A DNA stretch of 64,000 nt from Candidatus Moraniibacteriota bacterium (lineage in GTDB: Bacteria; Patescibacteriota; Minisyncoccia; Moranbacterales; UBA1568), in contig JAUSGT010000002.1 in NCBI GenBank assembly GCA_030648835.1, positions 89,665 to 153,664 of the forward strand, in the 5' to 3' direction. The notes under the pieces are model-generated. The model was not told the origin of the DNA, ran no database searches, and saw only the letters and a list, made by a program, of their open reading frames with translations. Below are positions 1,165 through 56,529 of this stretch, piece after piece. Position 1 is the stretch's first letter, and each line of letters starts with the position of its first letter. Position numbers and translations under genes: made by a program.

Positions 1165-1176
1165 AAAATCAATCTT

Positions 1177-2488: not shown

Positions 2489-2510
2489 ACAATTTAATTT
2501 TTAGAAAATT

Positions 2511-3167: not shown

Positions 3168-3177
3168 TCTGTTATAA
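3168..3177 (+). promoter_or_regulatory. extended -10 promoter element (TGtTATAAT) upstream of MTase
   Basis: 'ctgTTATAAT' with TGn extension 9 nt upstream of ATG 3186; no good -35. Confidence 0.35.
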
Positions 3178-3185
3178 TACATCCT

Positions 3186-4220
3186 ATGGATTCAATATTG
3201 AGTACAATTGACCTCTTCGCTGGTATTGGCGGTATCCGCAAAGGCTTTGAAAGAGCTGGTTTTGAAACACTCTATGCGGCAGATATCGATGCGGGATGTA
3301 AGGTTACGTATGACTTAAACTATAAAAATACGCCACTCACTTTGCAGAGCGTGACGGATATTGTTCCGGAGACCCTTCCGAACTTTGGTGTATTGTTGGC
3401 TGGATTTCCCTGTCAATCCTTTTCTGTCGCTGGTGGCAAAGCAGGTTTTGCTGACAAAGGACGAGGGGATCTCTTTTTTGAAATAATGAAGGTGCTTGAA
3501 GTGAAAAAACCCGCTGCAGTATTTCTTGAGAATGTTAAACATTTAGCGAAACACGATCATGGTCGGACCTTCGTCATAATAAAGGAACTTCTTGAGCGCT
3601 GTGGCTACCATGTAAAATTTGCGATGATGAATAGTGCCGAATATGGCAATGTTCCACAAAATAGAGACCGCATATATATTGTGGGCTTTCGAGACATGAA
3701 TGTATCCAATGCATTTGAATTTCCATCAAAAAAGATTTTGGAGCATTCTATAACAGATTTGCTTGAGACTGATGTTCCAGAAAAATATTATTACAAAAAA
3801 GGTTGGCTTTATGACCGTATAAAAAGCTTGGGTATGAAGCGAGGGCTAATATATCAGTGGCGTAGAGTTTATCTGAGAGAAAATAAAAGTGGTGTTTGTT
3901 TCACCTTGACTGCAAACATGGGGATGGGTGGACACAACGTCCCACTTGTTCGAGATGCAAAAGGGTTGCGTCGCCTTACACCACGTGAGTGCGCTCATTT
4001 GCAAGGATTCCCTAAAGGTTTTAAATTGCCGACGTCTTTACCGGATTCTCGTTTATATAAACAGATTGGTAACTCTGTAACAATTTCTGTAGTGGAGCGT
4101 ATCGCTCGTAACATCCGTAAGGCATTGGAGACGCCTAAAAAATCATATCGAGTACGTGTTGAAAGGAGGGCATCCGTTGATCAACAGGTTACTAAATCAT
4201 TCGTTGAGCTGGTTACTTAG
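3186..4220 (+). CDS. DNA (cytosine-5)-methyltransferase
   Basis: Motif I 'DLFAGIGG', IV 'GFPCQSFSVAG', VI 'VFLENVKHL', VIII 'QNRDRIYIVG', X 'IGNSVTISV'. Start placed at ATG 3186 (MDSILSTIDLFAGIGG) because the longer ORF start at 3147 would include the promoter. Confidence 0.9.
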   Translation: MDSILSTIDLFAGIGGIRKGFERAGFETLYAADIDAGCKVTYDLNYKNTPLTLQSVTDIVPETLPNFGVLLAGFPCQSFSVAGGKAGFADKGRGDLFFEIMKVLEVKKPAAVFLENVKHLAKHDHGRTFVIIKELLERCGYHVKFAMMNSAEYGNVPQNRDRIYIVGFRDMNVSNAFEFPSKKILEHSITDLLETDVPEKYYYKKGWLYDRIKSLGMKRGLIYQWRRVYLRENKSGVCFTLTANMGMGGHNVPLVRDAKGLRRLTPRECAHLQGFPKGFKLPTSLPDSRLYKQIGNSVTISVVERIARNIRKALETPKKSYRVRVERRASVDQQVTKSFVELVT

Positions 4221-4286
4221 TTAAAATAGCGTAGCGCTCTATTACCTCTGATTCGGTGGTATTTTTTGTTTTTCAAAAAAGTAACT

Positions 4287-4321
4287 TGACAAAACGGTAG
4301 TAGGGGTATACTATTAGTAAT
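4287..4321 (+). promoter_or_regulatory. sigma70-like promoter for the GHKL operon
   Basis: 'TTGACAaaacggtagtaggggTATACT', -35/-10 with 15-16 nt spacer, ~10-40 nt upstream of the first ORF. Confidence 0.4.
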
Positions 4322-4327
4322 AGCGTT

Positions 4328-4579
4328 ATGCCCTTGCTAAGGGCGATATGTATAAAAATTATGAAGAACCAAAAACGTATTCGCTTTGAACGCCTAGCTG
4401 TATATCGTACTAACGAAGTCCTGAAGCGCCTTAAGGTGCTTGGAAACTGTGGTAATCGTAGTGCATACGAATACAGTGAAGAGGAAATAAATAAAATATT
4501 TGCTGAAATAGAACGGAATGTTAGAGATTCACGTGCGAAGTTCCATTTTCCGAAGGGTCGTAAAGAATTCCGTCTCTAA
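4328..4579 (+). CDS. small basic hypothetical protein (possible regulator); first gene of GHKL operon
   Basis: 83-aa ORF (alternative start MKNQK at 4361); stop is 2 nt before the next ATG. Confidence 0.4.
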   Translation: MPLLRAICIKIMKNQKRIRFERLAVYRTNEVLKRLKVLGNCGNRSAYEYSEEEINKIFAEIERNVRDSRAKFHFPKGRKEFRL

Positions 4580-4581
4580 AT

Positions 4582-6477
4582 ATGCTCAAAGCTCAAAAGA
4601 AAAAAAAGAGTGAAGTTGTATTAGGCTGGCACTTCCCAGCCCTTGATCATGCCGACACAGAGGGGCTAAATGATCCGCTTTTGGGATACTTTGGTGGCGA
4701 TTATAACCAATGTGTGGCAAGAGAAGTGATCCAGAACTCCATAGATGCACGGGACGACACGGAATGCCCAGTGTTTGTTAAATTTGAAAAATTAAAACTA
4801 CCCATAGCAGATGTCCCTGGTATTGCAGAATTGAAAGAGCATATAAAAATTTGTTTGGCTCAGGCCAAAAGCGAACACAACGACAAAGCGGAAAAGCACT
4901 ACAGGGATGCCCTAAAGATTGCCACGGCAACGTCCATTGATGTTCTCAGAGCTTCTGACTACAATACGTCAGGTTTGGACGGTGTCGACGACGATAAAAA
5001 AGGGAAATGGCACCGGCTTGTGAAGGCGGTTGGAGAGAATCAGCTTACAGGGGCGGGTGGTGGATCATACGGTATTGGAAAAGGAGCACCTTTTGTTGCT
5101 TCTATGATGAGAGCAGTCTATTACTCTACAAAAAACTCTTCTGGTGAGGTTATTTTTCAGGGAAAAGCACGGCTACTTAGCCATCAGTGGAAGGGTAGTG
5201 ATTATCGCGGAGTAGGGTCGTTTGGCATCGAGGGCTATAAGTCTGTAAGAGAGGAAGGTAAAATCCCAGAAATTTTTATACGAGACAAACAAGGAACGGA
5301 CATCAATATCATAGGGTACAATGTAACGCCGTCATGGAAGGACGAACTTGCAAAGTCAGTGCTGGATAATTTTTGGATGGCCATACATTCCAACGACCTG
5401 GAAGTTATCATAAGTGATGGGGCGGATGAAATCAGTATAAACCGAGCAACCCTACCAGAACTTTTAGAGAAACATAGCCGGGATGAGGGCCTCATATATT
5501 ACCGCACGGTTATCAATCCGACTCGTACGTTCAAGAAGCAACTTCCTTTGCTTGGAGCCTGCACTTTCTATGTGCGCATTGAGGAAAGATTTCCGAGGGA
5601 GACAATATATATGCGACGACCAAAAATGCGGGTGAGCAAATGGCGTTTTCCAAAGACCTTACATGAACCGCATGCCGGATTGTTCATTTGCGAGGATGTA
5701 GAGGGGAATAAACTACTACGAAACTTAGAGCCTCCTGAGCATGATGAATGGAAGGCTACTCTAGATCCTCTGCAGGGGAAAGAAATCATAGCAGCAGTAC
5801 GTTCATGGATTACGGGGAATTTGAAGGAGTTGGCGGCGGAGGAAAGCGACGACTCAGAAGAAGTCCCTGGATTGGAGAAGTTTCTGCCTTACGATGAAGA
5901 CTCTGAGAAGGAATCACTTGCCAACAAGAGCAGGAGCAAGCCGGCGGACTTCGCGGAATTAGAAGAAGGGCCGGTTGAAGTTGGAGCTGAACGTGAGGAA
6001 ACCGAGGACGAAGTTGAGGATCATGTAAGGAAACCTTCAAGCCTCACTCCATCGAGTGGCGATGATCCAAATTATCGTCATGGCAATGGGAGCAGGCGCC
6101 ACCGTAGAGGGGGAGGCGGAAACAACAACGTGGACCCTGATGGTGACGCCATTAAGCGCATTGATACGTCCGCAGTAAAATTCAGAATTATTCATACTGG
6201 GCGATCAGAGATGGGAAATGCTGAGTACTGTCTCGTTATTGAGCCTCTTGCCGATGTAGAAGGGGCTATAGATGTTGTAGCTCTTGGGAACGACTCTACA
6301 GTGTACCCGATTCCACTTGCATATGCCGAACCTTGGGATAAAGAATCGGGTTCCTTCAGTATCGAAAAATCTTATATCAATGGACTGAAGCTTAAGAAGG
6401 GGAAAGAACTACGCATCAAGATTGGTACAATGTCGAAGTCTAGGTATGCCCTTGGTATAGAAAATTATGAAAGCTAA
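4582..6477 (+). CDS. GHKL-superfamily (Bergerat-fold) ATPase with acidic disordered C-terminal region
   Basis: 631 aa. N-box 'REVIQNSIDA' (E-x3-N-x2-D). G2 box 'GGGSYGIGKGAPF' (Hsp90/MORC/TopoVI-B-like GxxGxG). Long D/E-rich low-complexity stretch before a C-terminal ~130-aa domain. Confidence 0.7.
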   Translation: MLKAQKKKKSEVVLGWHFPALDHADTEGLNDPLLGYFGGDYNQCVAREVIQNSIDARDDTECPVFVKFEKLKLPIADVPGIAELKEHIKICLAQAKSEHNDKAEKHYRDALKIATATSIDVLRASDYNTSGLDGVDDDKKGKWHRLVKAVGENQLTGAGGGSYGIGKGAPFVASMMRAVYYSTKNSSGEVIFQGKARLLSHQWKGSDYRGVGSFGIEGYKSVREEGKIPEIFIRDKQGTDINIIGYNVTPSWKDELAKSVLDNFWMAIHSNDLEVIISDGADEISINRATLPELLEKHSRDEGLIYYRTVINPTRTFKKQLPLLGACTFYVRIEERFPRETIYMRRPKMRVSKWRFPKTLHEPHAGLFICEDVEGNKLLRNLEPPEHDEWKATLDPLQGKEIIAAVRSWITGNLKELAAEESDDSEEVPGLEKFLPYDEDSEKESLANKSRSKPADFAELEEGPVEVGAEREETEDEVEDHVRKPSSLTPSSGDDPNYRHGNGSRRHRRGGGGNNNVDPDGDAIKRIDTSAVKFRIIHTGRSEMGNAEYCLVIEPLADVEGAIDVVALGNDSTVYPIPLAYAEPWDKESGSFSIEKSYINGLKLKKGKELRIKIGTMSKSRYALGIENYES

Positions 6478-7297
6478 AAATATATCATATCCATATCCCG
6501 TCCTTGGTAACGATGACGATGTAGAAGGCAAGTTCGATGCTTCTTTTAAGCATATGCTCAAAAGAGACAATATCATTCTCAAGTCTCGCTTTTCGCTGAA
6601 GAATAAAACGCTTGAAAGACTTATCAGGGAAAAGAAGGCTGTCTACACTGTAGAAGTAGAATGCCCGAGCACGTTTTATAGGAAGCTTTTTTCTACCATT
6701 GAAACGGAAGCAGATTTTGTTTTGTCTTCGACTGTGGTACGAGAGCATGTTTCCGTAGGCTTCTTTATCCGTGCGACAGAAACCTTAGCCGAATACGAGA
6801 TAACCGGGTGTCATGCTGATTATGAAGGCTTTAAATTCGATGTAGGGCCTGGGGATGTATTGGCGCTTGGTGGTTACACATCTTTCATTGCGGAAAAGGA
6901 TTTTGACCCGATGCAACCGGCTGTTTCGTCTCTTATTGCTATTAAACAGGGAAATAAGGATGTAGGGCCAATGGAAATCGACTATTCGCAAGACAAGATA
7001 TTCATCAAACTTTCCCGCAAAGATCATAAGAACTACTCGCAAATAAAAGGGCAAGTAACTATTGCTGGCGTACTTCATTCATCTATAGTGTTGCCGGTCC
7101 TGGCGGACGCCATCCAGCTTGTTTTGTCTGAAGACGAAGAAACGCAGGAGAGACATTGGTTTCGCCGGCTTGAAGTAATTTTGCGACATCAGGGTCTCGA
7201 GGGAGAGGATCCGCTAATTAGTGCCCAGAAAGTTTTGCACGGTCCAATCGAGCGTTGCTTGTCTGGGCTTGTGGAAACCGCTGAGGCAGATGAATAA
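6467..7297 (+). CDS. hypothetical protein (GHKL operon gene 3)
   Basis: 276-aa ORF overlapping the GHKL stop by 11 nt; no recognisable motif. Confidence 0.5.
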   Translation: MKAKNISYPYPVLGNDDDVEGKFDASFKHMLKRDNIILKSRFSLKNKTLERLIREKKAVYTVEVECPSTFYRKLFSTIETEADFVLSSTVVREHVSVGFFIRATETLAEYEITGCHADYEGFKFDVGPGDVLALGGYTSFIAEKDFDPMQPAVSSLIAIKQGNKDVGPMEIDYSQDKIFIKLSRKDHKNYSQIKGQVTIAGVLHSSIVLPVLADAIQLVLSEDEETQERHWFRRLEVILRHQGLEGEDPLISAQKVLHGPIERCLSGLVETAEADE

Positions 7298-7305
7298 AAA
7301 TTATT

Positions 7306-8109
7306 ATGAACCAAAACATTTTCAAGCGGATGTATGTAGCAGAACTCCGGGACAAAGTGCGTAGTGGCGAGTCACTGTGTGATTACCTCAAAAGGGAAGT
7401 CGAATATCCTACAGATGCAGTAATTGAATCTACAATTAAGATAGACTCTGAGAAACTCAAATTGAAGTATCGCGGTACGGGAGAATCAGCAAGCAATGAT
7501 CTAGAAAATGCTATTACTTTGTACGAGGCCTTTCCGGGGCTAACTGAAACGCAAGCTTCTGACTCGAGGCTTTGGACGTATCTTACTCATGTCACTCTAC
7601 GAGATTACGTTTTCGCTCGATGGCCACTTGAGGGTAGTTGCGAACAGATAAAGAATGATAGTAGGAAACAAGCAATTGTCGCTGATTTCATATTAAGTCA
7701 TTGGTTTGCTTCCGGTGGTAGTGATCGCCTACTTCGCCGCAATGCTGCCGCTCGCTTATGGTGGCCAGTACATCTTACGCACGCACCCTGGCTACGTGAA
7801 CCAGAATTCTTTGCAGACCTAGGAGCAAGTGACCCATACCGCTTTACGAAAATATTACTTTCCATGGAAAGCATATATGCGGAGGTGCTTGAGCGTGGAT
7901 TAGGTCGTGATAATCGTATACTCATAACCGTGTTGGAATTTCTTGAGGTAAACAAGGGTATCAAACGTGATCAAATTCGTAGTTTCATGAAAGAACTGAA
8001 CCTGTTTCTTTCCGTTAGAAACCTTTCCTTACTTTCGAGAAAGGGTATGAAAGAAGCAATTTTCAGTGTTGGCGGTGGAGCCATAGCTGAAATGGGACTT
8101 GATTTGTAG
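7306..8109 (+). CDS. hypothetical protein (GHKL operon gene 4)
   Basis: 267-aa ORF 8 nt after the previous stop; Trp-rich 'LWWPVHLTHAPW'; no recognisable domain. Confidence 0.5.
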   Translation: MNQNIFKRMYVAELRDKVRSGESLCDYLKREVEYPTDAVIESTIKIDSEKLKLKYRGTGESASNDLENAITLYEAFPGLTETQASDSRLWTYLTHVTLRDYVFARWPLEGSCEQIKNDSRKQAIVADFILSHWFASGGSDRLLRRNAAARLWWPVHLTHAPWLREPEFFADLGASDPYRFTKILLSMESIYAEVLERGLGRDNRILITVLEFLEVNKGIKRDQIRSFMKELNLFLSVRNLSLLSRKGMKEAIFSVGGGAIAEMGLDL

Positions 8110-8120
8110 GGGGGAGACCT

Positions 8121-8642
8121 ATGGATTTTATATCTATTTATGTATCAGTTTCAAAACAGATATTAAATGACTATCAGTGGCTGGTCGGCATATTTTTCAC
8201 GGCCGGACTGTCATTGTTGGTATATTTTAGACTTCTTAGAATAAATAACTTTCTTGCATATTCCCAAAAATATCACGAGAACCTCAAATCATTTTTATTT
8301 CTTGAGAAGATCAATTATAAAAATGGAGAAATGGTCTATAGGGATTCAGGAGAAGATGTGGAAGAGCAGGACGCCCTAAATTTAACAGTCCTATATAATT
8401 TATTGTCTGAAGTCGGCCTGCTTTATAGAAGAGGGTTAATTAATCGGGATCTTGTATACCAGCACTTTGGGAATGTAGTCTACTCACTTTATACGCAGCA
8501 CAGAGATATCATTAGCCATATTCAAAGCCATACAAAAACAGATAATATTGAATTTTTATTTGAAGCTTTTAGCAAGAGAGGTGTGCGGTGTGATCGGATG
8601 AAGAAGTTGAGAAATTTTTTCTTTGGGAGAAAATCCAAATAG
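8121..8642 (+). CDS. hypothetical membrane-anchored protein (GHKL operon gene 5)
   Basis: 173 aa; N-terminal hydrophobic helix 'WLVGIFFTAGLSLLVYF'; 11 nt after the previous stop. Confidence 0.45.
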   Translation: MDFISIYVSVSKQILNDYQWLVGIFFTAGLSLLVYFRLLRINNFLAYSQKYHENLKSFLFLEKINYKNGEMVYRDSGEDVEEQDALNLTVLYNLLSEVGLLYRRGLINRDLVYQHFGNVVYSLYTQHRDIISHIQSHTKTDNIEFLFEAFSKRGVRCDRMKKLRNFFFGRKSK

Positions 8643-8838
8643 CTCACTATTTGATGATGATACATATGCCGGATCATGAGAAAAGGGCGGAGAAGCTGAA
8701 AGTGACGCATAGTTGATAAGTAGGTGAAACTGTTATATCCAGTGACAATTTGCTAATATGTGAATAAGCGCAACAATTGAATAGGAAAGTAGCCTAAAGT
8801 TGCCGGAGTTTTCTCCGGTAACCATGGTGAAAAATAAG

Positions 8839-8883
8839 TCTCGTCAGAGTAAAAAAACCGATCATTAGGTTTTGCTCTGACGA
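8839..8883. repeat. perfect 10-bp inverted repeat hairpin (ctcgtcagag / ctctgacgag) in intergenic region
   Basis: Seen directly; ~25-nt loop; no T-tract; between the GHKL operon and the pAgo module. Confidence 0.3.
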
Positions 8884-8972
8884 GCCATATCTGGAAACGG
8901 ATGTGGAGAGTGCAAACTCTCACCTAGTGGTCGGCTTTTTGTATTTCAAGTGAGCAATTAATCAAAATCATT

Positions 8973-49314: not shown

Positions 49315-51102
49315 ATGGAGATTCGAAATATTGCCATCATCGCGCACGTGGACCACGGGAAGACTACTCTGACTGATGCTTTGATGCGTCAAACGGGAAT
49401 GGTAACTGACGCGAGCGTGACAATGGATTCCAACGCGCTTGAGCAGGAGCGGGGGATCACGATCTACGCCAAGAATGCCGCGCTTTTTTGGAAAAACACG
49501 AAAATCAACATCGTCGATACACCGGGACACGCTGATTTCGGTTCTGAAGTGGAACGAGTACTGCGTTCGATCGACAGTGTTGTCTTGGTGGTGGATGCGC
49601 AAGAGGGACCGATGCCTCAGACACGCTTCGTCTTGAAGAAGTCACTGGAATTGGGCCTCAAGCCGATTGTTGTCTTGAACAAGATCGATAAGCCGGCCGC
49701 TCGTCCGGAAATAGCGAGTGAGATGGTGTATGAGTTGTTTCTTGATCTGGGAGCCAGTGATGAACAGCTTGATTTCAAAGTAGTGTATGCCATCGCCCGG
49801 CAAGGAATAGCCAAGCTTTCACTTTTGGAAGAGGGGAAAGATCTTTCTCCACTGCTTGATACGATTCTCGAAAGAGTACCGGCCGCCAAAACCGATACCG
49901 AAAGTCCGCTCCGCGTTCAACCGTTCAATTTGGGCTATGATAATTTTGTTGGGCGTCTGGCCATCGCTCGTGTGTACGAGGGGAAACTTCGGGTGAATGA
50001 TTCCATAATCATGAGGAACAAGGAGGGGAAGAATGAGGCGGGGCGTATCGTGAAACTTTTCACTTTTCGCGGTCTGGAGCGAGTGGAGGCAACCTTCGTT
50101 GAGGCCGGTGATATCGTGATGATTGCCGGGTTGGCAAATGTCGAGATTGGTGACACAATTTGCGTTTCTTCCGAGCAGGAGCTTTTGCCGGCGATTGCGA
50201 TTGACGAACCGACGATTTCTCTTAACTTTGTCGTGAACGATTCTCCTTTTGCCGGACGGGAGGGAAAGTATGTCACCAACAAACAATTGCGTGAGCGGCT
50301 CAAGAAAGAATTGGAAATCAATGTCGGTCTGCGCATCGATTTTTCCGACGATCATTACAAGGTGTACGGACGCGGCGAATTGCATGTGGCGATTCTTTTG
50401 GAAAATATGCGACGGGAGGGCTATGAAGTGCAGGTATCGCAGCCCCAGGTCATTATCAAGGAAGTAGACGGTGTGAAGTCGGAGCCGTTTGAAGAGGTGA
50501 CGGTGGAGTGCCCCGCGGAAGTATCCGGCACGGTAATCGAGAAAATGGGCAAGCGCAAGGGGATCATGATGGAAATGAAAGAGGGGAGCGGCGGATACAC
50601 ACGACTTATTTTCGAGGTGCCGACCCGCGGACTTTTGGGGTATCGCGGGGAGTTCATGGTGGATACGCGCGGCGAGGGGACTCTCTACACCCGTGTTTTG
50701 GGATTCCGGCCGTTTGTGGGCGAGATCAGAAAGCGCGATGCGGGGTCGATGGTATCTATGGCGACGGGAAAGGCGCTGGCCTTCTCTCTCAACAATCTTC
50801 AGGCGCGCGGTACACTCTATATTGGCCCCGGGACGGAAGTCTACGAAGGTATGGTAGTCGGCAATGTGACCAAAGGCACCGATATGGCCGTCAACCCGAT
50901 CAAAGGCAAGGCAATGAGCAATATGCGTTCTTCCGGCGCTGATGAAGCCATCAAACTGACGCCGCCGATCGAAATATCGATTGAGCGAGGGTTGGAAATT
51001 ATGCTTGAGGATGAGTATTTGGAAATCACGCCGCACAATGTCCGTCTGCGTAAACAATTTTTGACGGAAACGGAGAGAACGCGGGCCGGCAGAAAAAAAT
51101 AA
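49315..51102 (+). CDS. typA: ribosome-associated GTPase TypA/BipA
   Basis: '[19 protein letters not shown]', 'DTPGHADF', 'NKIDKP'; 595 aa. Confidence 0.9.
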
Positions 51103-51209
51103 TTTTAAAAAAAGACCTCTCTTGGGGGTCTTTTTTCTTAGAGTGTTTTTGTGCTATGATAGGGGCGAATCAAAGGGAGTGCTTTTGAGAAAACAAAACA
51201 ACTATTTTT

Positions 51210-51683
51210 ATGACTTTTCGTTTTGCGCGCTTTTTTCTTTTGGGATTTTTCTTTTTTTCTCTTGCCGTGACAGCTATACCGTCACCTACTTTGGCTGCCG
51301 GTCTCATTCCTTGTGGGCGTTCCACCGACGATCCATCCACCACTACGATCAATGAGACAGATAAATGTACCATTTGCCATATTATCGTCGGTGGTCAAGG
51401 GATAATGGACTGGGGGTTGAAAGTTATGACTTTTGTGGCTATCGCGGTAATCGTCGCGATGGCTGTCCTCTATATTGTTTCTGCCGGCAACGATGGGATG
51501 ATGACGACGGCCAAGGGCGGTATCAAAGCGGCCTTTATCGGTTTTGCAGTGATGCTCGGGGCCTGGCTGATTATAAGTACAACGATCCGGATTTTTTCAG
51601 CGACTATCCCCGGTCTTGATATCACGAGCAATGGTTTCAGTTTTTCTTGTAATACGACATCGAGTGCCGGTTCGGTGAAGTAA
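51210..51683 (+). CDS. T4SS-pilin-like (TrbC/VirB2-type) membrane protein, paralog 1
   Basis: Signal, then hydrophobic hairpin 'VMTFVAIAVIVAMAVLYIVSAGNDGMMTTAKGGIKAAFIGFAVMLGAWLII'. Confidence 0.5.
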   Translation: MTFRFARFFLLGFFFFSLAVTAIPSPTLAAGLIPCGRSTDDPSTTTINETDKCTICHIIVGGQGIMDWGLKVMTFVAIAVIVAMAVLYIVSAGNDGMMTTAKGGIKAAFIGFAVMLGAWLIISTTIRIFSATIPGLDITSNGFSFSCNTTSSAGSVK

Positions 51684-51689
51684 CAGTCT

Positions 51690-51950
51690 ATGCAAAACTT
51701 TTTTCATATTGATGTGGCGTACGCCGGAGTAATTACGGATGCTCCGCCAGTTACCTCCATACTGTTCAATACACTCACTTTCTTGTTGTCAATCGTCGGC
51801 GTTCTTGGTATAATCGGATTAGTGGTTTCCGGGATACTTTACTTATCCGCGGCAGGAGATGAAGAACGGATGCGGCTGGCCAAGCGGGCGGCTTTCGCGT
51901 CAGTAGGTGGTATCCTGACAGCGCTCATAGCACGGATACGGTGGTTTTGA
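51690..51950 (+). CDS. T4SS-pilin-like protein, paralog 2 (short)
   Basis: 'LLSIVGVLGIIGLVVSGILYLSAAGDEERMRLAKRAAFASVGGILTALI'. Confidence 0.45.
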   Translation: MQNFFHIDVAYAGVITDAPPVTSILFNTLTFLLSIVGVLGIIGLVVSGILYLSAAGDEERMRLAKRAAFASVGGILTALIARIRWF

Positions 51951-52015
51951 ACCAGGAGGGGTACTTTTTTCAAATGAAAAAAATAAAAAATAAAAACAGA
52001 AAGGAGGTGAGAAGT

Positions 52016-52408
52016 ATGAATAAAATTAAACAAGCCTTGTACGCAGCGACCGCGACAGCTCTCACAGCCACGCCATTTTTGGCGGGAGCTCAAAGCACTG
52101 GCGGCCCAGTTAGCACCGGGTTTGATCAGACTGCGACTGGTGCTCAGGGGCTTACTGGTACGCCAATTTTCGATCTCATCAGCACATTCATGAACTGGCT
52201 TTTGGGACTCGTCGGCGTGCTGGCGGTCATTGCCTTTGTGATTTCCGGTATCCTCTATCTCACCGCCGCCGGTAACGAGGAGCAAATTGAGAAAGCAAAG
52301 TCTACCATGATGTATGCTATCATCGGTCTCGTTGTGGCTCTCGTTGGTCTGGTGATCGTCAACGCCGTTTCCGGTTTGACAAATGCTGGTGTCAATACTG
52401 GTTTCTAG
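52016..52408 (+). CDS. T4SS-pilin-like protein, paralog 3
   Basis: RBS AAGGAGGTGA before ATG 52016; 'FMNWLLGLVGVLAVIAFVISGILYLTAAGNEEQIEKAKSTMMYAIIGLVVALVGLVIVNAV'. Confidence 0.55.
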   Translation: MNKIKQALYAATATALTATPFLAGAQSTGGPVSTGFDQTATGAQGLTGTPIFDLISTFMNWLLGLVGVLAVIAFVISGILYLTAAGNEEQIEKAKSTMMYAIIGLVVALVGLVIVNAVSGLTNAGVNTGF

Positions 52409-52447
52409 TTTCTTTTCTACAACGAGGTTGATGCGACCTTGTGAAAG

Positions 52448-52475
52448 CCATCCTGCTTCGGTAGGATGGTTTTTG
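52448..52475 (+). terminator. intrinsic terminator (CCATCCTGC-TTCG-GTAGGATGG + T5)
   Basis: 9-bp stem (one G-U pair), T-tract. Confidence 0.6.
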
Positions 52476-52611
52476 TTAGCACCAGTCATCTATCGGTCAG
52501 CCCAGACGTTGAAGCCGGCTTGGATTTGATAAGTAAGATAGCATCCTCGTATAGAGGTGGCGGAGTGAATTGTTTTTTTGTCTAAAAAAGAGTAGAATAG
52601 AAGAAAGCATA

Positions 52612-52697
52612 TTGTCATTCTGAGCAAAGCGAAGAATCCCGTTATAAAAAGCACCATTCCTTCCTTTTGAGATCCTTCACTGCGTTCAGGATGACAG
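52612..52697. repeat. ~85-nt element with imperfect terminal inverted repeats (TGTCATTCTGAGC / GTTCAGGATGACA)
   Basis: Seen directly; antisense translation yields an 'HPERSEGS'-type peptide characteristic of a widespread small repeat. Confidence 0.35.
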
Positions 52698-52739
52698 TAA
52701 AAAACCAAATAAAAATATAAATATAACGCAACGAGAAGT

Positions 52740-53159
52740 ATGAAAAATATTAAACAAGCTCTCTACGCAGTGACTGCGACAGTTCTCGTTGCCGCACCGT
52801 TTATGGTAGGCGCCCAAACTGGCATCCCTGCCGCTGGCACAATTGCTACTCCGGATAGTACCGGGTTCAACGTTTCGAAAGCCACTACCTCCACTACCGG
52901 TCTTGCGAATAAGTCAGTCTATTCGATCATCGGCACATTCATGAATTGGCTTTTGGGACTCGTCGGCGTGCTGGCGGTCATTGCCTTTGTGATTTCCGGT
53001 ATCCTCTATCTCACCGCCGCCGGTAACGAGGAGCAAGTTGAGAAAGCCAAAGGTATTATGACGTACGCTATTATTGGTCTCGTCGTGGCACTTCTGGGTC
53101 TGGTGATCGTCAACGCCGTTGCCGGGCTGACTAGCGCGGGTGGGGCTACCAGCTTCTAA
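52740..53159 (+). CDS. T4SS-pilin-like protein, paralog 4
   Basis: 'FMNWLLGLVGVLAVIAFVISGILYLTAAGNEEQVEKAKGIMTYAIIGLVVALLGLVIVNAV' (DNA nearly identical to paralog 3 over this segment). Confidence 0.55.
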   Translation: MKNIKQALYAVTATVLVAAPFMVGAQTGIPAAGTIATPDSTGFNVSKATTSTTGLANKSVYSIIGTFMNWLLGLVGVLAVIAFVISGILYLTAAGNEEQVEKAKGIMTYAIIGLVVALLGLVIVNAVAGLTSAGGATSF

Positions 53160-53209
53160 CTTATAATAAATAATTTCAAGAGAAAAATTGGAGTGATTTC
53201 GTAAAAACC

Positions 53210-53620
53210 ATGAGTAAAAGAAATATATTTTTTGCAATTTTTCTTTTTTTCGGGATAGGTATTCTTTCTGTCCCTGTGGCGGATCTTTTCGCCATTACCA
53301 CTTGTCCAGCCAACTTTACTCCGCAATTCGGAGTCTGTTTTCCGGATGCAGACAAGATAGGCCTGGGGAGCCTCACTGTTTTGGATCTTTTACAGAGATT
53401 TATGAATTGGCTTTTGGGGATTGTCGGCGTGTTGGCGGTCATCGCTTTTATCATTTCGGGGGTGCAATATCTTGTTTCGTCCGGTGACGAAGAAGTGACG
53501 GAAACCGCCAAGCGCAATATGAAATACGCCATCATCGGGTTGGTGATAGCGCTTTCCGGACTGATCGTGGTCAATGCTGTTGCCGGGCTGACGGGCGCGA
53601 CCGGAGCCACGGCGTACTAA
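53210..53620 (+). CDS. T4SS-pilin-like protein, paralog 5
   Basis: 'FMNWLLGIVGVLAVIAFIISGVQYLVSSGDEEVTETAKRNMKYAIIGLVIALSGLIVVNAV'. Confidence 0.55.
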   Translation: MSKRNIFFAIFLFFGIGILSVPVADLFAITTCPANFTPQFGVCFPDADKIGLGSLTVLDLLQRFMNWLLGIVGVLAVIAFIISGVQYLVSSGDEEVTETAKRNMKYAIIGLVIALSGLIVVNAVAGLTGATGATAY

Positions 53621-53639
53621 ATTTCCCAAAAATAATTTT

Positions 53640-54734
53640 TTGTCTATGCTGTTTTTTCGAAGAATAACTTCTCATTTCTTCACTACTCTGGTGTTTGTTT
53701 CTTTTTCGTTTGTATTGTCTGCGTTTGTTTTTCAACAAACGGCCCTTGCCGTAACGAAAGCTCAATGTGAATTAATAGCTCCTGGCAGCGTTTGTAAACC
53801 AAGCCCCCCTGGTTGCGCCAGCGTGGGGGCAAGCCCTACCGAGGGTGATAGAGGTATATGTAGTGATGTAGGGGGTGTTGTAGGGAGTTTCGCTTGTTGT
53901 GAAAATTTAAAACCACCGGCAGATACGAATATACTGGATGCTACATGTAGAAATTTTAGTGGGGCGGATTGTTTTTCTTCCTCATGTGATTCGACGACAA
54001 AGAATTTTTTGGCACGCTGTGTTACCCCGGGCGCAGGGTATAGCAGCAATAGCTACTGTTGTCAAGATAAAGCGGCGGCAACTCCTCCCGCTGGTGGTGT
54101 TCCGGCATCATCCCCAACTCCTGGCGGTGTTCCCGCCCCTACTGGTTCACAATCTATTTCTTTTACCAATCCGCTTCTTTTCAATACCGTAGAAGGACTG
54201 CTGGGCAGTCTTCTTGGTACGCTGCAGGGGATTATCGTCGTTTTGGCGCTGGTTTTTATTGTCATTGGTGCGGTGCTATATGTGACGTCAGCTGGCAACG
54301 AAGGACAGATGACATTGGCAAAGGGGGCTATCACGGCTGCGATGATCGGTCTCGCCCTCGGTATCGCGGCCCCATCGTTTTTGAAAGAAATCAGCGGGAT
54401 TCTCGGCTGGACCCCTGCTATTACGTGTCCCACTGCTGTGAGCGCTACTGTGACTGCTGACGATATAGCAAAGTGTACTGCTGCTCAAGCAACTCTTGCA
54501 GCGGGGAAGCCCCTTTCGGAAATCGCACTGAATGTTCTCAATTTTCTGCTTTCTATTGTGGGCGTACTGACAGTCATTATGATGGTAGTGGGCGGAGTCA
54601 TATACCTCACGGCCGCCGGGAATGAAGATCAAATTGACACCGGGAAAAAAATCGTGAATTACGCAACCATTGGCATTCTTGTTTCCTTGGCTTCTCTCAT
54701 CTTGGTGCGGCAGATTGCCAGTTTCTTTGGGTAA
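53640..54734 (+). CDS. T4SS-pilin-like protein with Cys-rich N-domain, Pro/Gly linker and two tandem pilin motifs
   Basis: 364 aa; two copies of the motif: 'LALVFIVIGAVLYVTSAGNEGQMTLAKGAITAAMIGLALGI' and 'LLSIVGVLTVIMMVVGGVIYLTAAGNEDQIDTGKKIVNYATIGILVSL'. Confidence 0.55.
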   Translation: MSMLFFRRITSHFFTTLVFVSFSFVLSAFVFQQTALAVTKAQCELIAPGSVCKPSPPGCASVGASPTEGDRGICSDVGGVVGSFACCENLKPPADTNILDATCRNFSGADCFSSSCDSTTKNFLARCVTPGAGYSSNSYCCQDKAAATPPAGGVPASSPTPGGVPAPTGSQSISFTNPLLFNTVEGLLGSLLGTLQGIIVVLALVFIVIGAVLYVTSAGNEGQMTLAKGAITAAMIGLALGIAAPSFLKEISGILGWTPAITCPTAVSATVTADDIAKCTAAQATLAAGKPLSEIALNVLNFLLSIVGVLTVIMMVVGGVIYLTAAGNEDQIDTGKKIVNYATIGILVSLASLILVRQIASFFG

Positions 54735-54807
54735 AATTTTTGATAAAAAGAAAACGGGCAGCGTATATGTTACGCGCTGCCCGCTTCTGCCAAGAAAGGA
54801 CCTTGTC

Positions 54808-55377
54808 CTACTTGACGAGTTTCTCGATGTTCACTTGGAGTTCCGCCTGGGTGAGTTTGTAGTAGGCTTCTTTAGGCGGTAGGTTGATGCCGATCGACAG
54901 GGCATCTCCGGATTCCAGGATAACTTTTTCCTGTTGGAAGGGGTCTATGATTACATTCCCCTTTTTCACGAGCAGGGCTCCGACCATCAAATTGTGGCCA
55001 GCCGGTGCAGTCCTTCGGAATTCATCGTTGAAGGGTGAGTTTGCCCAGTTATCGATGAGACTGACTCCTTTGGGCGGAATCGGAAGCGATTGGCCGTTGT
55101 CCAAACCCATTTGCCACACGGTGTACAGCGGAGTGATGCGATATGTCCCGGGAGGAACATCGATTTTACACCACCCTTGCTGAGCGTTCCACCGAATAGG
55201 GCACGTTACGTTTTTGTAGATCTGCCATTCGTTGCCCCAACTCCCCCCACCACTACCGAAGAGGTTGTAGATTATGGTAATGCCGATGATCCCGGCAGCC
55301 AGTAAACCGAGTCTTTTCAACCACTTATTGGTTCCGGCCTGAAGACTGGGAGCTTGTTGCGGTTGTGCTGTAGTCAT
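54808..55377 (-). CDS. membrane-anchored hypothetical protein
   Basis: 189 aa; single TM 'LGLLAAGIIGITIIYNLF'. Confidence 0.45.
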   Translation of the reverse strand: MTTAQPQQAPSLQAGTNKWLKRLGLLAAGIIGITIIYNLFGSGGGSWGNEWQIYKNVTCPIRWNAQQGWCKIDVPPGTYRITPLYTVWQMGLDNGQSLPIPPKGVSLIDNWANSPFNDEFRRTAPAGHNLMVGALLVKKGNVIIDPFQQEKVILESGDALSIGINLPPKEAYYKLTQAELQVNIEKLVK

Positions 55378-55389
55378 GAAGCACTCCTT

Positions 55390-56529
55390 TCACTTGTTTC
55401 TTCTGCGCTGGCTTTTGGCTTCAGGGTCAGCAGCAGAGGGTTGAGATGGTTTTTGTGCACCAGCTTGGTTGAGGATCCCGCCAACAAATGCACCGGCATT
55501 TTCTATTGGTGATGCCGTGCTGTCAAAGATAATACGTGTTGCTTTCCCACGCTCAGTTTGCACAAGGTTGGCGGCCGCTTGTGGAAGCAATCCAGCCTCT
55601 ACATAGAGTTTGATTTGACTGGCAACAGCTCTTGCCTCAGTCATTTCGGCAATGGCTTGCTGGGTCTCCTTCGCCTGATTGGCTACTTGGACTTGCACTT
55701 CTGACCTCGCATCCTCGATTTTTTTTGGTAGGCGGATGTGCGTTATCCGTACTTGGGAAACCTTGATTCCCCAAAGCTGTTCGGACTCGGCCAATCCCTT
55801 GAGAATAAGTCCTTCGAGAGGACTTGGGTCAGTACCAGGAACTGGAGCGGGCCCCCTGCCACTTGTTAGGACGTCTACGATAACTTGTTTTTCTTGTGCG
55901 ACAGCGCTTGATTGCAACTTCATCACAATAGAACGGAGATCGCTCTCGGCTGCATTTTTTAACGACTCCTCTGGTTTATCTGCACTGAGATTCTTGTTTA
56001 TGTCCGTGATTTTTAGTTGAAGCGCCACATCGATTTCAATGGGTACATTGTCTGCCGTCAGAACTTCTGTGAGAGGGAGGTTAAGTGGTTTGTCGCGCCC
56101 GTCCTTGATTTCCAAATCGCCTATCGGTTTTGGCCAGTTCCATACCACTCCTTCGGGATATTTTCTCCCTTCAACTCTTTTCCCCAGCCAAAGTTTCATA
56201 GCTATAAAACCGACAGGAATTGTTCGTAATCCCTTTATGCCGAAGTACAGAATGCATGCCACAAGCGTAATGAGTGCCAGTAGCGTTCCGGCGATTGGGT
56301 GCAGTAGCCAAGACCCAAAAAATTTCACGAGAAGCGATGCGACTATCCCGATGCCGAGCGTAACCACAACTCCTTCTGCATAACCGCGTGAATCATTCAT
56401 GCTGATCTCCTTTGCCTTTTCGAGTGATCGTGCGCTTATGTCGCGTACGAATGGTTTCATGGCAACCCATGCTTGACGCATGAGCACTAACGACCTGTCA
56501 ATATGAGGTCGTACTTGTGACCAATCCAT
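55390..56529 (-). CDS. SPFH/band-7 (stomatin/flotillin-like) membrane protein
   Basis: Two N-terminal TM helices; SPFH core 'LTEVLTADNVPIEIDVALQLKITD'; C-terminal coiled coil. Confidence 0.7.
   Translation of the reverse strand: MDWSQVRPHIDRSLVLMRQAWVAMKPFVRDISARSLEKAKEISMNDSRGYAEGVVVTLGIGIVASLLVKFFGSWLLHPIAGTLLALITLVACILYFGIKGLRTIPVGFIAMKLWLGKRVEGRKYPEGVVWNWPKPIGDLEIKDGRDKPLNLPLTEVLTADNVPIEIDVALQLKITDINKNLSADKPEESLKNAAESDLRSIVMKLQSSAVAQEKQVIVDVLTSGRGPAPVPGTDPSPLEGLILKGLAESEQLWGIKVSQVRITHIRLPKKIEDARSEVQVQVANQAKETQQAIAEMTEARAVASQIKLYVEAGLLPQAAANLVQTERGKATRIIFDSTASPIENAGAFVGGILNQAGAQKPSQPSAADPEAKSQRRRNK

What the first reader, a model, noticed from the sequence alone, without database searches (positions are those of the whole stretch)
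51210..54734. Tandem array of six paralogous T4SS-pilin-like (TrbC/VirB2-type) genes with variable N-termini; the last has an internal duplication
All six share a C-terminal hydrophobic hairpin around '...W/FLLGLVGVLAVIAFVISGILYLTAAGNEEQ(I/V)EKAK..AIIGLVVAL.GLVIVNAV'. Their N-terminal secreted domains are divergent (Cys-rich, Thr-rich, Pro/Gly-rich). Paralogs 3 and 4 are nearly identical at DNA level across the conserved part, which suggests recent gene conversion. The 364-aa member carries two copies of the motif. No VirB4/VirD4 is in the window. In CPR-type genomes such arrays may form surface or attachment structures for episymbiosis, or a variable pilin repertoire.
Basis: partly seen in the sequence, partly recalled or inferred. 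Interest (0 to 1): 0.6.

Follow-up and report, generated by a model that had tools for sequence, protein, structure and literature searches.

The report
Six-gene VirB2-like pilin array
A tiny Patescibacteria (Candidatus Moranbacteria) genome carries six adjacent genes for small membrane proteins related to the pilus subunits of conjugation-type (type IV) secretion machines; such arrays are already documented in this group, so this is a real but ordinary example.

Summary
Six same-strand genes at 51210-54734 encode seven copies of one two-helix membrane hairpin. All match Pfam PF18895 (T4SS_pilin); g1 falls just below the cut-off. No other copy occurs in the 64-kb window.

The proteins are GenBank MDO8565881-86 of a Candidatus Moranbacteria MAG, and NCBI already names three of them "pilin". 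Tandem arrays of 2-11 VirB2-like pilin genes are published for Patescibacteria: 441 arrays, including an essential six-pilin array in Ca. Southlakia. The kind is therefore known.

New details from this analysis:
- The array sits in a conserved housekeeping neighbourhood (SBP/TypA ... NusA/trigger factor).
- No VirB4 lies in the window, nor within 10 kb of the array in the related long loci.
- Its members fall into five conserved classes in a fixed order: 1-2-3(x1-3)-5-6.
- The two-domain last gene is an old, widespread architecture, not a recent duplication.
- g3 and g4 share a 90-nt identical tract with a significant lack of synonymous differences, which fits gene conversion.
- g2 looks degenerate.

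Whether this genome has a T4SS ATPase could not be tested; most Moranbacteria rows read in a published table do. Interest is low to moderate.

The parts
51108..51136 (+). Hairpin plus U-run after the upstream TypA/BipA gene (49315-51102). It is a likely terminator that separates the array from TypA.
   Evidence: RNA fold -14.5 kcal/mol, z -2.7; sequence read. The weak Rfam 'Thr_leader' hit here (E 0.95) is just this hairpin.
51210..51683 (+). g1, class-1 pilin-like protein (157 aa; MDO8565881.1, 'hypothetical'). It has a signal peptide and an exposed N-segment with the motif LIPCG...CTICH, then two TM helices and a C-tail with FSFSC.
   Evidence: PF18895 24.4 bits, E 3e-5, just below GA. BLASTP to g4 gives E 8e-8. 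Hydropathy shows a leader plus 2 TM, with Cys at 35, 53, 56 and 147. The orthologue in L002 is 55% identical. The 3+1 Cys signature is conserved in about 30 related sequences.
51690..51950 (+). g2, class-2 short pilin-like protein (86 aa; MDO8565882.1). It has no hydrophobic leader, and its second helix is weakened and cut short by a TGA stop, so it may be decaying.
   Evidence: PF18895 28.5 bits. Only one strong TM segment. tblastn with the L002 orthologue aligns through the stop...ARIRWF*TRRGTFF against ...AYILI--TQIASFF.
52016..52408 (+). g3, class-3 pilin (130 aa; MDO8565883.1, named 'pilin' by NCBI). It has a signal peptide ending AGA|QS, a variable 25-aa segment and a helical hairpin.
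   Evidence: PF18895 59.3 bits, PF04956 27.7 bits and NF045849 46.0 bits. Exact NCBI match P0121. The AlphaFold model has helices 51-83 and 88-121, with block-mean pLDDT about 80-94 over the hairpin.
52196..52285 (+). 90-nt tract in g3 that is identical to 52947-53036 in g4 (a candidate gene-conversion tract covering TM1 and the loop motif).
   Evidence: One synonymous difference in 35 aa-identical codons in the first half against 13 in 30 in the second: Fisher p 1.1e-4, permutation p 2e-4. The same tract is only 70% identical between g3 and g5.
52443..52474 (+). Strong hairpin followed by U-run directly after g3. It is a likely intrinsic terminator that splits the array into g1-g3 and g4-g6 units.
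   Evidence: RNA fold -20.6 kcal/mol, z -5.2, 0 of 200 shuffles as stable. It was not listed by the simple scan.
52610..52699 (.). Long imperfect palindrome (TGTCATTCTGAGCAAAGCGAAGAATC ... GATCCTTCACTGCGTTCAGGATGACA) in the g3-g4 spacer. It is a single copy in the window and its role is unknown.
   Evidence: RNA fold -29.5 kcal/mol, z -4.7. One match in the window. No Rfam family.
52740..53159 (+). g4, second class-3 pilin (139 aa; MDO8565884.1, 'pilin'). It is a lineage-specific duplicate of g3.
   Evidence: PF18895 53.2 bits. It is 87% identical to g3 in the core and 65-70% over the full length. Both g3 and g4 hit the same single L002 gene best.
52947..53036 (+). Partner of the 90-nt identical tract, in g4.
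53210..53620 (+). g5, class-5 pilin (136 aa; MDO8565885.1, 'pilin'). It has a signal peptide, a Cys32/Cys43 loop and the hairpin with loop SSGDEEVTETAKRNMKY.
   Evidence: PF18895 52.3 bits, PF04956 23.6 bits and NF045849 45.8 bits. The orthologue in L002 is 54% identical.
53646..54734 (+). g6, class-6 tandem pilin (362 aa from the ATG; a TTG at 53640 is possible). Its layout is: signal peptide; two 6-Cys modules each ending in CC (C41-C85, C101-C139); a Pro/Gly-rich linker; hairpin a (about 178-253); a linker with C261/C277; hairpin b (about 285-362). NCBI calls only the C-terminal 241 aa (MDO8565886.1).
   Evidence: PF18895 62.8 bits with two stretches. The 362-aa form is called on Logan contig L001. 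Full-length homologues P0004, P0012 and P0029 cover 99-100% of the query. The AlphaFold model has four long helices and a small beta region at 100-145.
54755..54783 (.). GC-rich hairpin between convergent g6 and the minus-strand gene 54808-55377. It is a likely bidirectional terminator that ends the array.
   Evidence: RNA fold -21.8 kcal/mol, z -4.4.

Best explanation
This is a chromosomal array of VirB2/TrbC-like pilin genes of the Patescibacteria type (Pfam PF18895), in a Candidatus Moranbacteria genome.

Shown:
- Six genes, probably in two transcription units (g1-g3 and g4-g6).
- They encode seven copies of a helix-loop-helix membrane hairpin with the loop motif Y-[ILV]-x(1-2)-[AS]-[AS]-G-[ND]-[DE] followed by a conserved ...AK.
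- Five of the six have an N-terminal leader.
- Their exposed segments differ.

Inferred:
- Each protein is inserted by Sec and its leader is cut at an AxA site.
- The hairpin then sits in the membrane with both ends outside and the conserved loop at the cytoplasmic face. This fits all extra cysteines lying in the predicted outside parts.
- A VirB4-driven type IV secretion apparatus encoded elsewhere in the genome extracts the subunits. It polymerises them into a surface filament or conduit that contacts a host cell.

The five classes recur in the same order in related genomes. I therefore read them as parts of one heteromeric structure:
- Class 3 (g3/g4) varies in copy number and is homogenised by gene conversion. 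It is the likely major subunit.
- Class 1 has a conserved 3+1 cysteine pattern that could tie its N- and C-tails together.
- Class 5 and the tandem class 6, with its Cys-rich head, are likely accessory or tip/adhesive subunits.
- The fast-evolving exposed parts would set host or surface specificity.
For: Family assignment: PF18895 hits on all six genes, PF04956 TrbC at 27.7 bits for g3 covering model positions 5-96 of 98, and NF045849 above its cut-off for g3 and g5.

Link to canonical VirB2: profile-profile alignment to six VirB2/TrbC proteins of MPF_T plasmids gives probability 67% and E 5e-5, over the segment before TM1 plus TM1. Both families carry an A-x-A-Q site before the mature N-terminus (consensus lines).

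Hairpin structure: hydropathy and AlphaFold models with block-mean pLDDT about 80-94 over the hairpin. The best PDB Foldseek hit of g6 is the Aeropyrum pernix conjugation pilus 8dfu (prob 0.85, but E 1.1).

Fixed class order 1-2-3(x1-3)-5-6: seen across the loci of at least 8 kb analysed, with positional orthologues 48-63% identical where TypA is 91% and NusA 77%.

Gene conversion between g3 and g4.

Literature: 441 VirB2 arrays of 2-11 genes in Patescibacteria (PMC12102498). Essential pilins lie inside the essential T4SS cluster of Ca. Southlakia epibionticum (PMC10633639). [quoted passage not shown]

VirB4 in relatives: it is listed as present in the closest named relative (GCA_001784695.1, the genome of L002) and in 17 of the 19 Moranbacteria rows I read in Table S1 of PMC12102498.
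Against: No T4SS ATPase, VirB3, VirB6 or coupling protein is recognisable in the 64-kb window. None lies within 10 kb of the array in the related long loci either. Of the four large Walker-A ORFs there, three are one ABC transporter and one has no Pfam hit. Genetic linkage, the usual support for a pilin call, is therefore missing.

Homology to canonical VirB2 is remote. TrbC is 0.2 bits under its threshold. hhalign covers only 34 columns. PDB sequence-profile searches find no pilin. Foldseek E-values are not significant, because a helical hairpin is a generic fold. tblastn of g3 against 72,556 plasmids finds nothing.

g2 lacks a leader and is truncated. None of the papers read here reports an imaged T4SS pilus in any Patescibacterium; PMC12857230 speaks only of a 'potential to elaborate conjugative pili'. 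The assignment of major and minor roles is inference only.
Confidence: 0.6

Rival explanations
1. These are T4SS-independent surface or membrane proteins. The two-helix hairpin is only a membrane anchor (or a small oligomeric membrane module). It displays variable ectodomains after Sec export, and no pilus is built.
For: The array is never next to VirB4 in this lineage and sits among housekeeping genes. PMC12102498 notes that the TM7x array was earlier called a 'Sec secreted array'. Class 1 and class 6 carry sizeable extra Cys-rich domains, and some relatives fuse up to 8 hairpins in one polypeptide (P0243). That is awkward for a helical pilus lattice.
Against: The most conserved part is the hairpin and its loop (72% column conservation against 33% in the exposed segment). 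This is the pattern expected of a polymerising or machine-docked module, not of a passive anchor. There is homology, although remote, to VirB2/TrbC and to a Mycoplasma ICE pilin-like transfer protein. In Ca. Southlakia the homologous pilins are inside the T4SS cluster and are essential.
Confidence: 0.25
2. The array is a variable pilin repertoire for antigenic or host-range variation. The paralogs are interchangeable alternatives, diversified and reshuffled by recombination, and one or a few are used at a time.
For: Exposed segments diverge much faster than housekeeping genes: 48-63% against 77-91% identity to L002. There is a gene-conversion tract between g3 and g4. Class-3 copy number varies from 1 to 3 between loci. 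PMC12102498 draws the analogy with Bartonella and Anaplasma VirB2 paralogs.
Against: The members are five distinct, anciently diverged classes with positional orthologues kept in the same order across loci whose housekeeping proteins are only 45-70% identical. I saw no promoterless cassettes or other switch elements between the genes, although I did not search systematically for an invertible promoter. Conversion is seen only within class 3. All but g2 look intact and are co-oriented in operon-like units with terminators.
Confidence: 0.1
3. These are small two-TM proteins of another kind, such as holins, toxin/immunity or bacteriocin-related membrane peptides, that only mimic pilin profiles through hydrophobic composition.
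For: Hydrophobic hairpins give weak hits to many unrelated membrane families (Cyt_bd_oxida_II, Erv26, DUFs). Some sources name homologues as a cytochrome bd subunit or an MnhB subunit.
Against: No PHROG family matches any of the six. The PF18895 scores are far above the noise hits (59 against 25 bits or less). The proteins have signal peptides, exposed variable domains and a non-hydrophobic conserved loop motif. They lie in a conserved chromosomal locus with no phage or toxin genes adjacent.
Confidence: 0.03

Closest known systems
VirB2-like pilin arrays of Patescibacteria (Quinonero-Coronel et al. 2025, PMC12102498), including the essential six-pilin array in the T4SS cluster of Ca. Southlakia epibionticum ML1 (Wang et al. 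2023, PMC10633639)
   Same: Same Pfam family (PF18895 was one of the profiles used to define them). Both are tandem same-strand arrays, here of six genes, with sequence-divergent members that share a conserved hairpin, in a host-dependent ultrasmall bacterium.
   Different: Here the array is not in or near a T4SS cluster. It is embedded between SBP/TypA and NusA/trigger factor. It is in class Paceibacteria (Moranbacteria), whereas arrays were reported as most abundant in Microgenomatia and Saccharimonadia. The g3/g4 pair (65-70% full-length identity) exceeds the reported within-array maximum of 54%. There is no functional data for this lineage.
Canonical VirB2/TrbC pilins of MPF_T conjugative and effector T4SS (Agrobacterium VirB2 and relatives; Pfam PF04956)
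   Same: Both are small proteins with a long leader, an A-x-A|Q processing site, two hydrophobic helices and a short polar loop. There is a near-threshold PF04956 hit and a partial profile-profile match.
   Different: The canonical gene is single-copy and lies directly between virB1 and virB3/virB4, in diderm hosts. Here there are six paralogs with no neighbouring machinery, in a presumed monoderm. The loop is acidic or mixed (NEEQIEKAK). Cyclisation and lipid binding, known for VirB2/TrbC from my own background knowledge, were not testable.
Mbov_0395 family pilin-like conjugal transfer protein of Mycoplasma ICEs (NCBIfam NF045849)
   Same: g3 (46.0 bits) and g5 (45.8 bits) pass the family cut-off of 40 across the whole 80-residue model. 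It is also from wall-less or monoderm bacteria with reduced genomes.
   Different: That family is defined as an equivalog within integrative conjugative elements. The present genes are chromosomal core genes, in six copies, with added leaders and ectodomains. g1, g2, g4 and g6 score below the cut-off.
Tandem VirB2 paralogs in Bartonella and Anaplasma T4SS loci
   Same: Multiple divergent pilin paralogs lie side by side, and a role in surface variation is proposed (as cited in PMC12102498).
   Different: Those are within or attached to virB loci of intracellular Proteobacteria. Here the paralogs are fixed classes in conserved order rather than a variable set.
Archaeal Ced/Ted conjugation-like pilus subunit (Aeropyrum pernix pilus, PDB 8dfu)
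   Same: It is the best structural neighbour of the g6 model in the PDB: 76 aligned columns, TM-score 0.59 on the target and 21% identity. It is also a VirB2-like hairpin.
   Different: The match is not statistically significant (E 1.1), and there is no sequence-profile hit.

Membership tests
Pfam PF18895 T4SS_pilin | Whole-protein HMM score at or above the gathering threshold (26.6 bits) | tested here: met
   g2 28.5, g3 59.3, g4 53.2, g5 52.3, g6 62.8 (two domains). g1 scores 24.4, just below. g1 is tied to the family by BLASTP to g4 (E 8e-8) and by orthologues.
Pfam PF18895 T4SS_pilin | Two hydrophobic helices joined by a short conserved polar loop, preceded by a leader | tested here: met
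   Hydropathy gives a leader plus 2 TM in g1 and g3-g5, 4 TM in g6, and no leader with a weak TM2 in g2. AlphaFold gives a helical hairpin with block-mean pLDDT about 80-94. Y, G and G are invariant and K nearly invariant across 27 domains.
TrbC/VirB2 pilin (Pfam PF04956) | HMM score at or above the gathering threshold (27.9 bits) | tested here: inconclusive
   g3 scores 27.7 bits (E 3.3e-6, model 5-96 of 98) and g5 23.6 bits; the others have no hit. The database's precomputed annotation lists PF04956 for the exact g3 protein.
TrbC/VirB2 pilin (Pfam PF04956) | Profile-profile or structural similarity to experimentally defined VirB2-type pilins | tested here: inconclusive
TrbC/VirB2 pilin (Pfam PF04956) | Gene lies in a T4SS locus next to virB3/virB4 | tested here: not met
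   Canonical genes sit between virB1 and virB3. Here there is no T4SS gene in the 64-kb window, nor within 10 kb in the related long loci.
TrbC/VirB2 pilin (Pfam PF04956) | Assembles into an extracellular pilus; leader processing and cyclisation | not testable with these tools
   Only AxA-type cleavage sites can be read from the sequence.
Patescibacteria VirB2 pilin array (sensu PMC12102498) | Two or more pilin genes in tandem or separated by one non-pilin gene | tested here: met
   Six consecutive pilin genes, with the largest gap 331 bp and no intervening gene.
Patescibacteria VirB2 pilin array (sensu PMC12102498) | Genome also encodes the Patescibacteria-type VirB4 and associated T4SS components | not testable with these tools
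   Only 64 kb of a 635,596-bp contig is available. The NCBI contig is not retrievable and the genome is not in the GTDB representative set searched. Indirect support: VirB4 is 'Yes' for the closest named relative and for 17 of 19 Moranbacteria rows read.
Patescibacteria VirB2 pilin array (sensu PMC12102498) | High divergence among members (reported mean 25%, maximum 54% identity) | tested here: inconclusive
   Most pairs are 24-47% identical, but g3/g4 are 65-70% over the full length and 87% in the core. The metric may differ from the paper's.
NCBIfam NF045849 Mbov_0395 family pilin-like conjugal transfer protein | Score at or above the cut-off of 40 bits (equivalog model) | tested here: inconclusive
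   g3 46.0 and g5 45.8 pass. g4 37.2, g6 27.7, g2 15.5 and g1 9.5 do not. The ICE context that defines the equivalog is absent.
Phage holins / PHROG families | Match to any phage protein family | tested here: not met
   No PHROG hit at E <= 0.01 for any of the six proteins.

The most novel reading that the evidence does not exclude
In Moranbacteria the pilin array is not a loose set of variants. It is a vertically inherited operon of five classes in fixed order (1-2-3n-5-6), kept in a housekeeping neighbourhood and unlinked to any T4SS ATPase. It would build a heteromeric surface filament with several parts. The major subunit is class 3. Class 1 has N- and C-tails joined by a disulfide, which would be a redox analogue of VirB2/TrbC cyclisation. 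A tandem-hairpin subunit with a double 6-Cys head would serve as tip or adhesin. The filament might be assembled without a canonical VirB4 machine.
Probability: 0.2. Interest if true: 0.55.

Novelty: new member of a known kind. Interest (0 to 1): 0.25.

Why it matters
Patescibacteria make up a large share of bacterial diversity and appear to live attached to host cells. In the one genetically tractable member, the T4SS and its pilin array are essential for that lifestyle. This locus adds a well-checked example from a different class, Paceibacteria/Moranbacteria.

It also gives three practical leads:
- A conserved five-class gene order that can guide the choice of subunits for structural modelling or antibody and proteomic work.
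- A conserved chromosomal address (SBP/TypA ... NusA) that makes the array easy to find and compare between strains.
- Evidence that the exposed parts evolve fast while class-3 copies are homogenised by gene conversion.

It does not change the current picture of these systems.

Tried and rejected
- PDB sequence-profile searches with the hairpin alignment (A3) and the class-3 alignment (A4) gave only spurious hits: designed 'Pizza' proteins, EcfT and Flp pilin at E > 0.3.
- Foldseek of the g3 model against the PDB gave only generic helical hairpins such as ATP synthase subunit c, all with E > 0.9. This fold is too simple for fold search to discriminate.
- tblastn of g3 against all PLSDB plasmids found no match.
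- A PHROGs scan of all six proteins found nothing, so the holin idea is dropped.
- An Rfam scan of 50800-55500 found nothing significant.
- Retrieving the source contig failed. g6 with the TTG start, g4 and the NCBI 241-aa form are not on record. Only an 8-kb Logan contig was found, and it breaks inside g4.
- The genome-contig scan returned only three related loci and not the source genome.
- The diverse hairpin alignment A3 was too variable to seed a metagenome scan. A closer class-3 alignment worked.
- Looking for the source genome in Table S1 of PMC12102498 by locus-tag prefix or contig size gave no hit.
- I considered using the last homologue search to fish for this genome's VirB4. I had no Patescibacteria VirB4 sequence to seed it, and none of the 84 fetched loci contains one.
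- A frameshift explanation for the short g2 was checked. The orthologous C-terminus is recognisable after an in-frame TGA, so a premature stop is more likely than a frameshift.

Full report
**What is there**

- g1 51210-51683
- g2 51690-51950
- g3 (longest ORF from 51941; real start 52016)
- g4 52740-53159
- g5 53210-53620
- g6 53640/53646-54734

Every one hits Pfam PF18895 (T4SS_pilin). Scores are 24.4 bits for g1 (threshold 26.6), 28.5 for g2, 59.3, 53.2 and 52.3 for g3-g5, and 62.8 with two matched stretches for g6. g3 and g5 also score 27.7 and 23.6 bits on TrbC/VirB2 (PF04956, threshold 27.9). Both pass the cut-off of NCBIfam NF045849, the 'Mbov_0395 family pilin-like conjugal transfer protein' (46.0 and 45.8 against 40). 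An HMM built from the seven hairpins finds no further copy anywhere in the 64-kb window.

**Anatomy**

Each hairpin carries the loop motif Y-[ILV]-x(1-2)-[AS]-[AS]-G-[ND]-[DE]. Across 27 related domains, a Tyr and two Gly are invariant and a Lys nearly so.

Hydropathy shows an N-terminal leader plus two TM helices in g1, g3, g4 and g5, and a leader plus four helices in g6. g2 has a single strong helix and no leader.

The AlphaFold model of g3 (80-sequence alignment) has a leader helix, a disordered segment at residues 24-50, and a hairpin (helices 51-83 and 88-121) with block-mean pLDDT about 80-94. The g6 model has four long helices and a small beta region at 100-145.

All extra cysteines lie in parts predicted to be outside the membrane:
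- g6 has 12 Cys arranged as two 6-Cys modules, each ending in CC, plus two Cys in the linker between hairpins.
- g1 has four Cys, three before TM1 and one after TM2.
- g5 has two.

In the class-3 family the leader ends in a nearly invariant AP..A.AQ. Canonical VirB2/TrbC proteins from six MPF_T plasmids have an invariant A.AQ at the equivalent place.

Stable hairpins followed by U-runs sit after TypA, after g3 and after g6 (z-scores -2.7, -5.2 and -4.4). The array therefore probably forms two transcription units, g1-g3 and g4-g6. The 331-bp g3-g4 spacer also holds a 90-nt palindromic element of unknown role.

**Relationships among the six**

Core identities range from 23 to 68%, except g3/g4 at 87%. 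Full-length g3/g4 identity is 65-70%.

At the DNA level g3 and g4 share a perfect 90-nt run (52196-52285 = 52947-53036) within a 237-nt core that is 84% identical. Among codons that encode the same amino acid, there is one synonymous difference in the first 35 and 13 in the remaining 30. This gives Fisher p = 1.1e-4 and permutation p = 2e-4 for the longest difference-free run. The same tract is only 70% identical between g3 and g5, so it is not constrained at the nucleotide level. A recent gene-conversion tract is the simplest reading. An 8-kb short-read Logan contig of the same organism starts inside g4, as expected if assembly breaks at this repeat.

The two hairpins of g6 are only 33% identical. 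Hundreds of homologues match across both hairpin domains, and several (P0004, P0012, P0029) also cover the Cys-rich N-terminus. The 'internal duplication' is therefore an ancient domain architecture. It also means the NCBI call of 241 aa is too short.

g2 ends nine codons early. The orthologous C-terminus is still recognisable after its in-frame TGA, and its second helix has acquired arginines. It may be decaying.

**Organism and context**

The six proteins are GenBank MDO8565881.1-MDO8565886.1 (locus tags Q7S04_01695-01720) of a Candidatus Moranbacteria MAG, on a 635,596-bp contig. NCBI already names g3, g4 and g5 'pilin'.

The window around them is housekeeping:
- CCA-adding enzyme, IF-2, DUF4446, a methyltransferase, an ABC solute-binding protein and TypA upstream.
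- Band-7 protein, NusA, pyrophosphatase, trigger factor, ClpP and iPGM downstream.

I scanned the 50 or so ORFs of at least 150 aa that look like real genes against Pfam, and ten that gave no Pfam hit also against NCBIfam. About twenty ORFs that overlap other genes on the opposite strand or in another frame were not scanned. No VirB4, VirD4, VirB6 or other T4SS component appeared.

Three genome loci and 80 metagenome loci containing relatives were fetched. Of the 32 loci of at least 8 kb (one of them the same-organism Logan contig L001), 31 carry three to nine same-strand pilin genes. The flanks repeat the same synteny: IF-2, DUF4446, methyltransferase, SBP, sometimes TypA, then the array, then NusA, PPase, trigger factor, ClpP and iPGM. 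This holds even where housekeeping proteins are only 45-70% identical.

None of these loci has a VirB4-like gene within 10 kb. Of the four large Walker-A ORFs there, three are one ABC transporter and one has no Pfam hit.

**Five classes in a fixed order**

I classified each hairpin by its best match to the window's types. This shows a recurring order: class 1, class 2 (or a 6b-like short form), one to three class-3 genes, class 5, then the tandem class 6. The window's 1-2-3-3-5-6 is identical to locus L046.

Positional orthologues between the window and the closest named relative (L002, Moranbacteria RIFCSPHIGHO2_01_FULL_54_31) are 48-63% identical, whereas TypA is 91%, NusA 77% and SBP 72%. 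The pilins therefore evolve fast but keep class and order.

In the class-3 alignment, the hairpin has 72% column conservation and the exposed mature N-segment 33%. Class 1 has a conserved signature in about 30 sequences: (L/I)(V/I)PCG, then C-[TS]-x-C-[HD] before TM1, and [FY]-x-F-x-C about 20 residues after TM2. In the minimal forms this is three Cys on the N-side and one on the C-side, so at least one disulfide should join the two tails. This last step is inference.

**How common, and what is known**

A profile of class 3 finds 53,964 cluster representatives at E <= 0.001 among 1.84 billion proteins. They include polypeptides with up to eight hairpins.

The literature already describes this kind:
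- Quinonero-Coronel et al. 2025 used PF18895 and PF04956 and found VirB2-like pilins in 1,948 Patescibacteria assemblies that contain VirB4. The pilins were near virB4 in 1,135 of them. They also found 441 arrays of 2-11 pilin genes, with mean 25% and maximum 54% identity within arrays (PMC12102498).
- Wang et al. 2023 showed that a series of predicted pilins inside the T4SS cluster of Ca. Southlakia epibionticum is essential for epibiotic growth. They noted that Gram-positive-type T4SSs normally lack a pilus (PMC10633639).

Table S1 of the first paper lists VirB4 as present in the genome of L002 and in 17 of the 19 Moranbacteria rows I read.

**How strong is the link to true VirB2 pilins**

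The link is remote but consistent:
- The TrbC Pfam score is 0.2 bits short of its threshold.
- Profile-profile comparison with six plasmid VirB2/TrbC proteins, each annotated between virB1 and virB3, gives probability 67% and E 5e-5 over 34 columns that cover the pre-TM1 segment and TM1.
- The best PDB structural neighbour of g6 is the Aeropyrum pernix conjugation pilus (8dfu), but at a non-significant E of 1.1.
- g3 alone returns only generic hairpins.
- PDB sequence-profile searches and a plasmid-wide tblastn found nothing.
- No phage family matches.

**Most likely mechanism**

Shown: six co-oriented genes for leader-bearing two-helix hairpin proteins of the T4SS_pilin family, in five conserved classes, with fast-evolving exposed parts.

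Inferred:
- Sec insertion and leader cleavage at AxA sites.
- A hairpin topology with both ends outside.
- Extraction and polymerisation by a VirB4-type machine encoded elsewhere in the genome.
- The product is a surface filament or conduit used in host contact. Class 3 would be the major subunit, and classes 1, 5 and 6 accessory or adhesive subunits.

I put this at about 0.6. The main rival (0.25) is that the hairpin is a T4SS-independent membrane module that displays ectodomains. This is favoured by the complete lack of linkage to T4SS genes in this lineage. A repertoire for antigenic variation (0.1) fits the conversion tract and the fast-evolving exposed parts, but not the fixed classes and order. 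Holin-like or other small membrane proteins are very unlikely (0.03).

**Verdict**

The kind is already published and partly annotated in GenBank, so this is a new member of a known kind.

The added observations are incremental: the conserved address away from VirB4, the five-class order, the ancient tandem-hairpin subunit, the class-1 cysteine signature, g3/g4 conversion and g2 decay.

The key open point is whether this genome has a T4SS ATPase. It could not be tested because only 64 kb of the contig is accessible. Interest 0.25.

Noticed in passing
window 10067-11584 (+), with 8973-10061 (+) upstream: The 505-aa ORF has a weak match to NCBIfam 'protein argonaute' (NF048006, E 5.9e-12, 44.9 bits, residues 278-489 against model 419-622 of 633, the PIWI-end region). 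This is far below the family cut-off. It could be a short prokaryotic Argonaute, with the upstream 362-aa ORF (no Pfam hit) as its partner.
   Followed up: no
window 1-14200: A lower-GC (0.36-0.44) same-strand block looks like an integrated element or defence island rather than core genome. It contains a rolling-circle Rep-like protein (1661-2488, PF23343), a C5 cytosine methylase (3147-4220), DUF6339 (7306-8109), a trypsin-like peptidase and a Peptidase_S49, plus several ORFs with no family hit, including a 631-aa ORF at 4582-6477.
   Followed up: partly
window 52610-52699: A 90-nt imperfect palindrome (TGTCATTCTGAGCAAAGCGAAGAATC ... GATCCTTCACTGCGTTCAGGATGACA) sits in the g3-g4 spacer. It folds at -29.5 kcal/mol (z -4.7), is a single copy in the window, and matches no Rfam family. 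A spurious minus-strand ORF (52490-52708) translates it.
   Followed up: partly
window 53646-54734 (g6): The GenBank gene model (MDO8565886.1, 241 aa) omits the signal peptide and the double 6-Cys N-terminal domain. The 362-aa form is called on a Logan contig, and homologues P0004, P0012 and P0029 cover 99-100% of it.
   Followed up: yes
L001 (Logan SRR13727527_159023, 8086 bp): The short-read contig of the same organism begins inside g4. The assembly breaks at the g3/g4 repeat, so copy number of class-3 pilins is probably under-counted in short-read MAGs.
   Followed up: no
L003 (CAZQWS010000019.1) and L004 (CAZGWO010000002.1): Contigs labelled 'uncultured Bdellovibrionales' and 'Pseudobdellovibrionaceae' carry the Moranbacteria-type pilin array and synteny. 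In L003, NusA is 74% and ClpP 81% identical to the window's. They are probably mis-binned or mislabelled Patescibacteria contigs.
   Followed up: partly
P0241-P0245, P0326, P0330 (protein representatives): Some family members are 'poly-pilins' with 6-8 hairpin domains in one polypeptide of 500-820 aa (for example P0243, 820 aa with 8 stretches). It is unclear how such chains could fit a pilus lattice.
   Followed up: no
L002 3931-7525 (minus strand): In the closest relative, two genes (a GH28 glycosyl hydrolase and a PMT_2 glycosyltransferase) are inserted between TypA and the array. They are absent from the window, so the upstream junction of the array is a site of gene gain or loss.
   Followed up: no
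window 54808-55377 (-) and 55390-56529 (-): The two genes immediately downstream of the array are a 189-aa protein with no family hit and a Band-7/SPFH protein. They have no counterpart next to the arrays in L002-L004 at the threshold used (tblastn E <= 1e-5), so they are not conserved partners of the array.
   Followed up: partly
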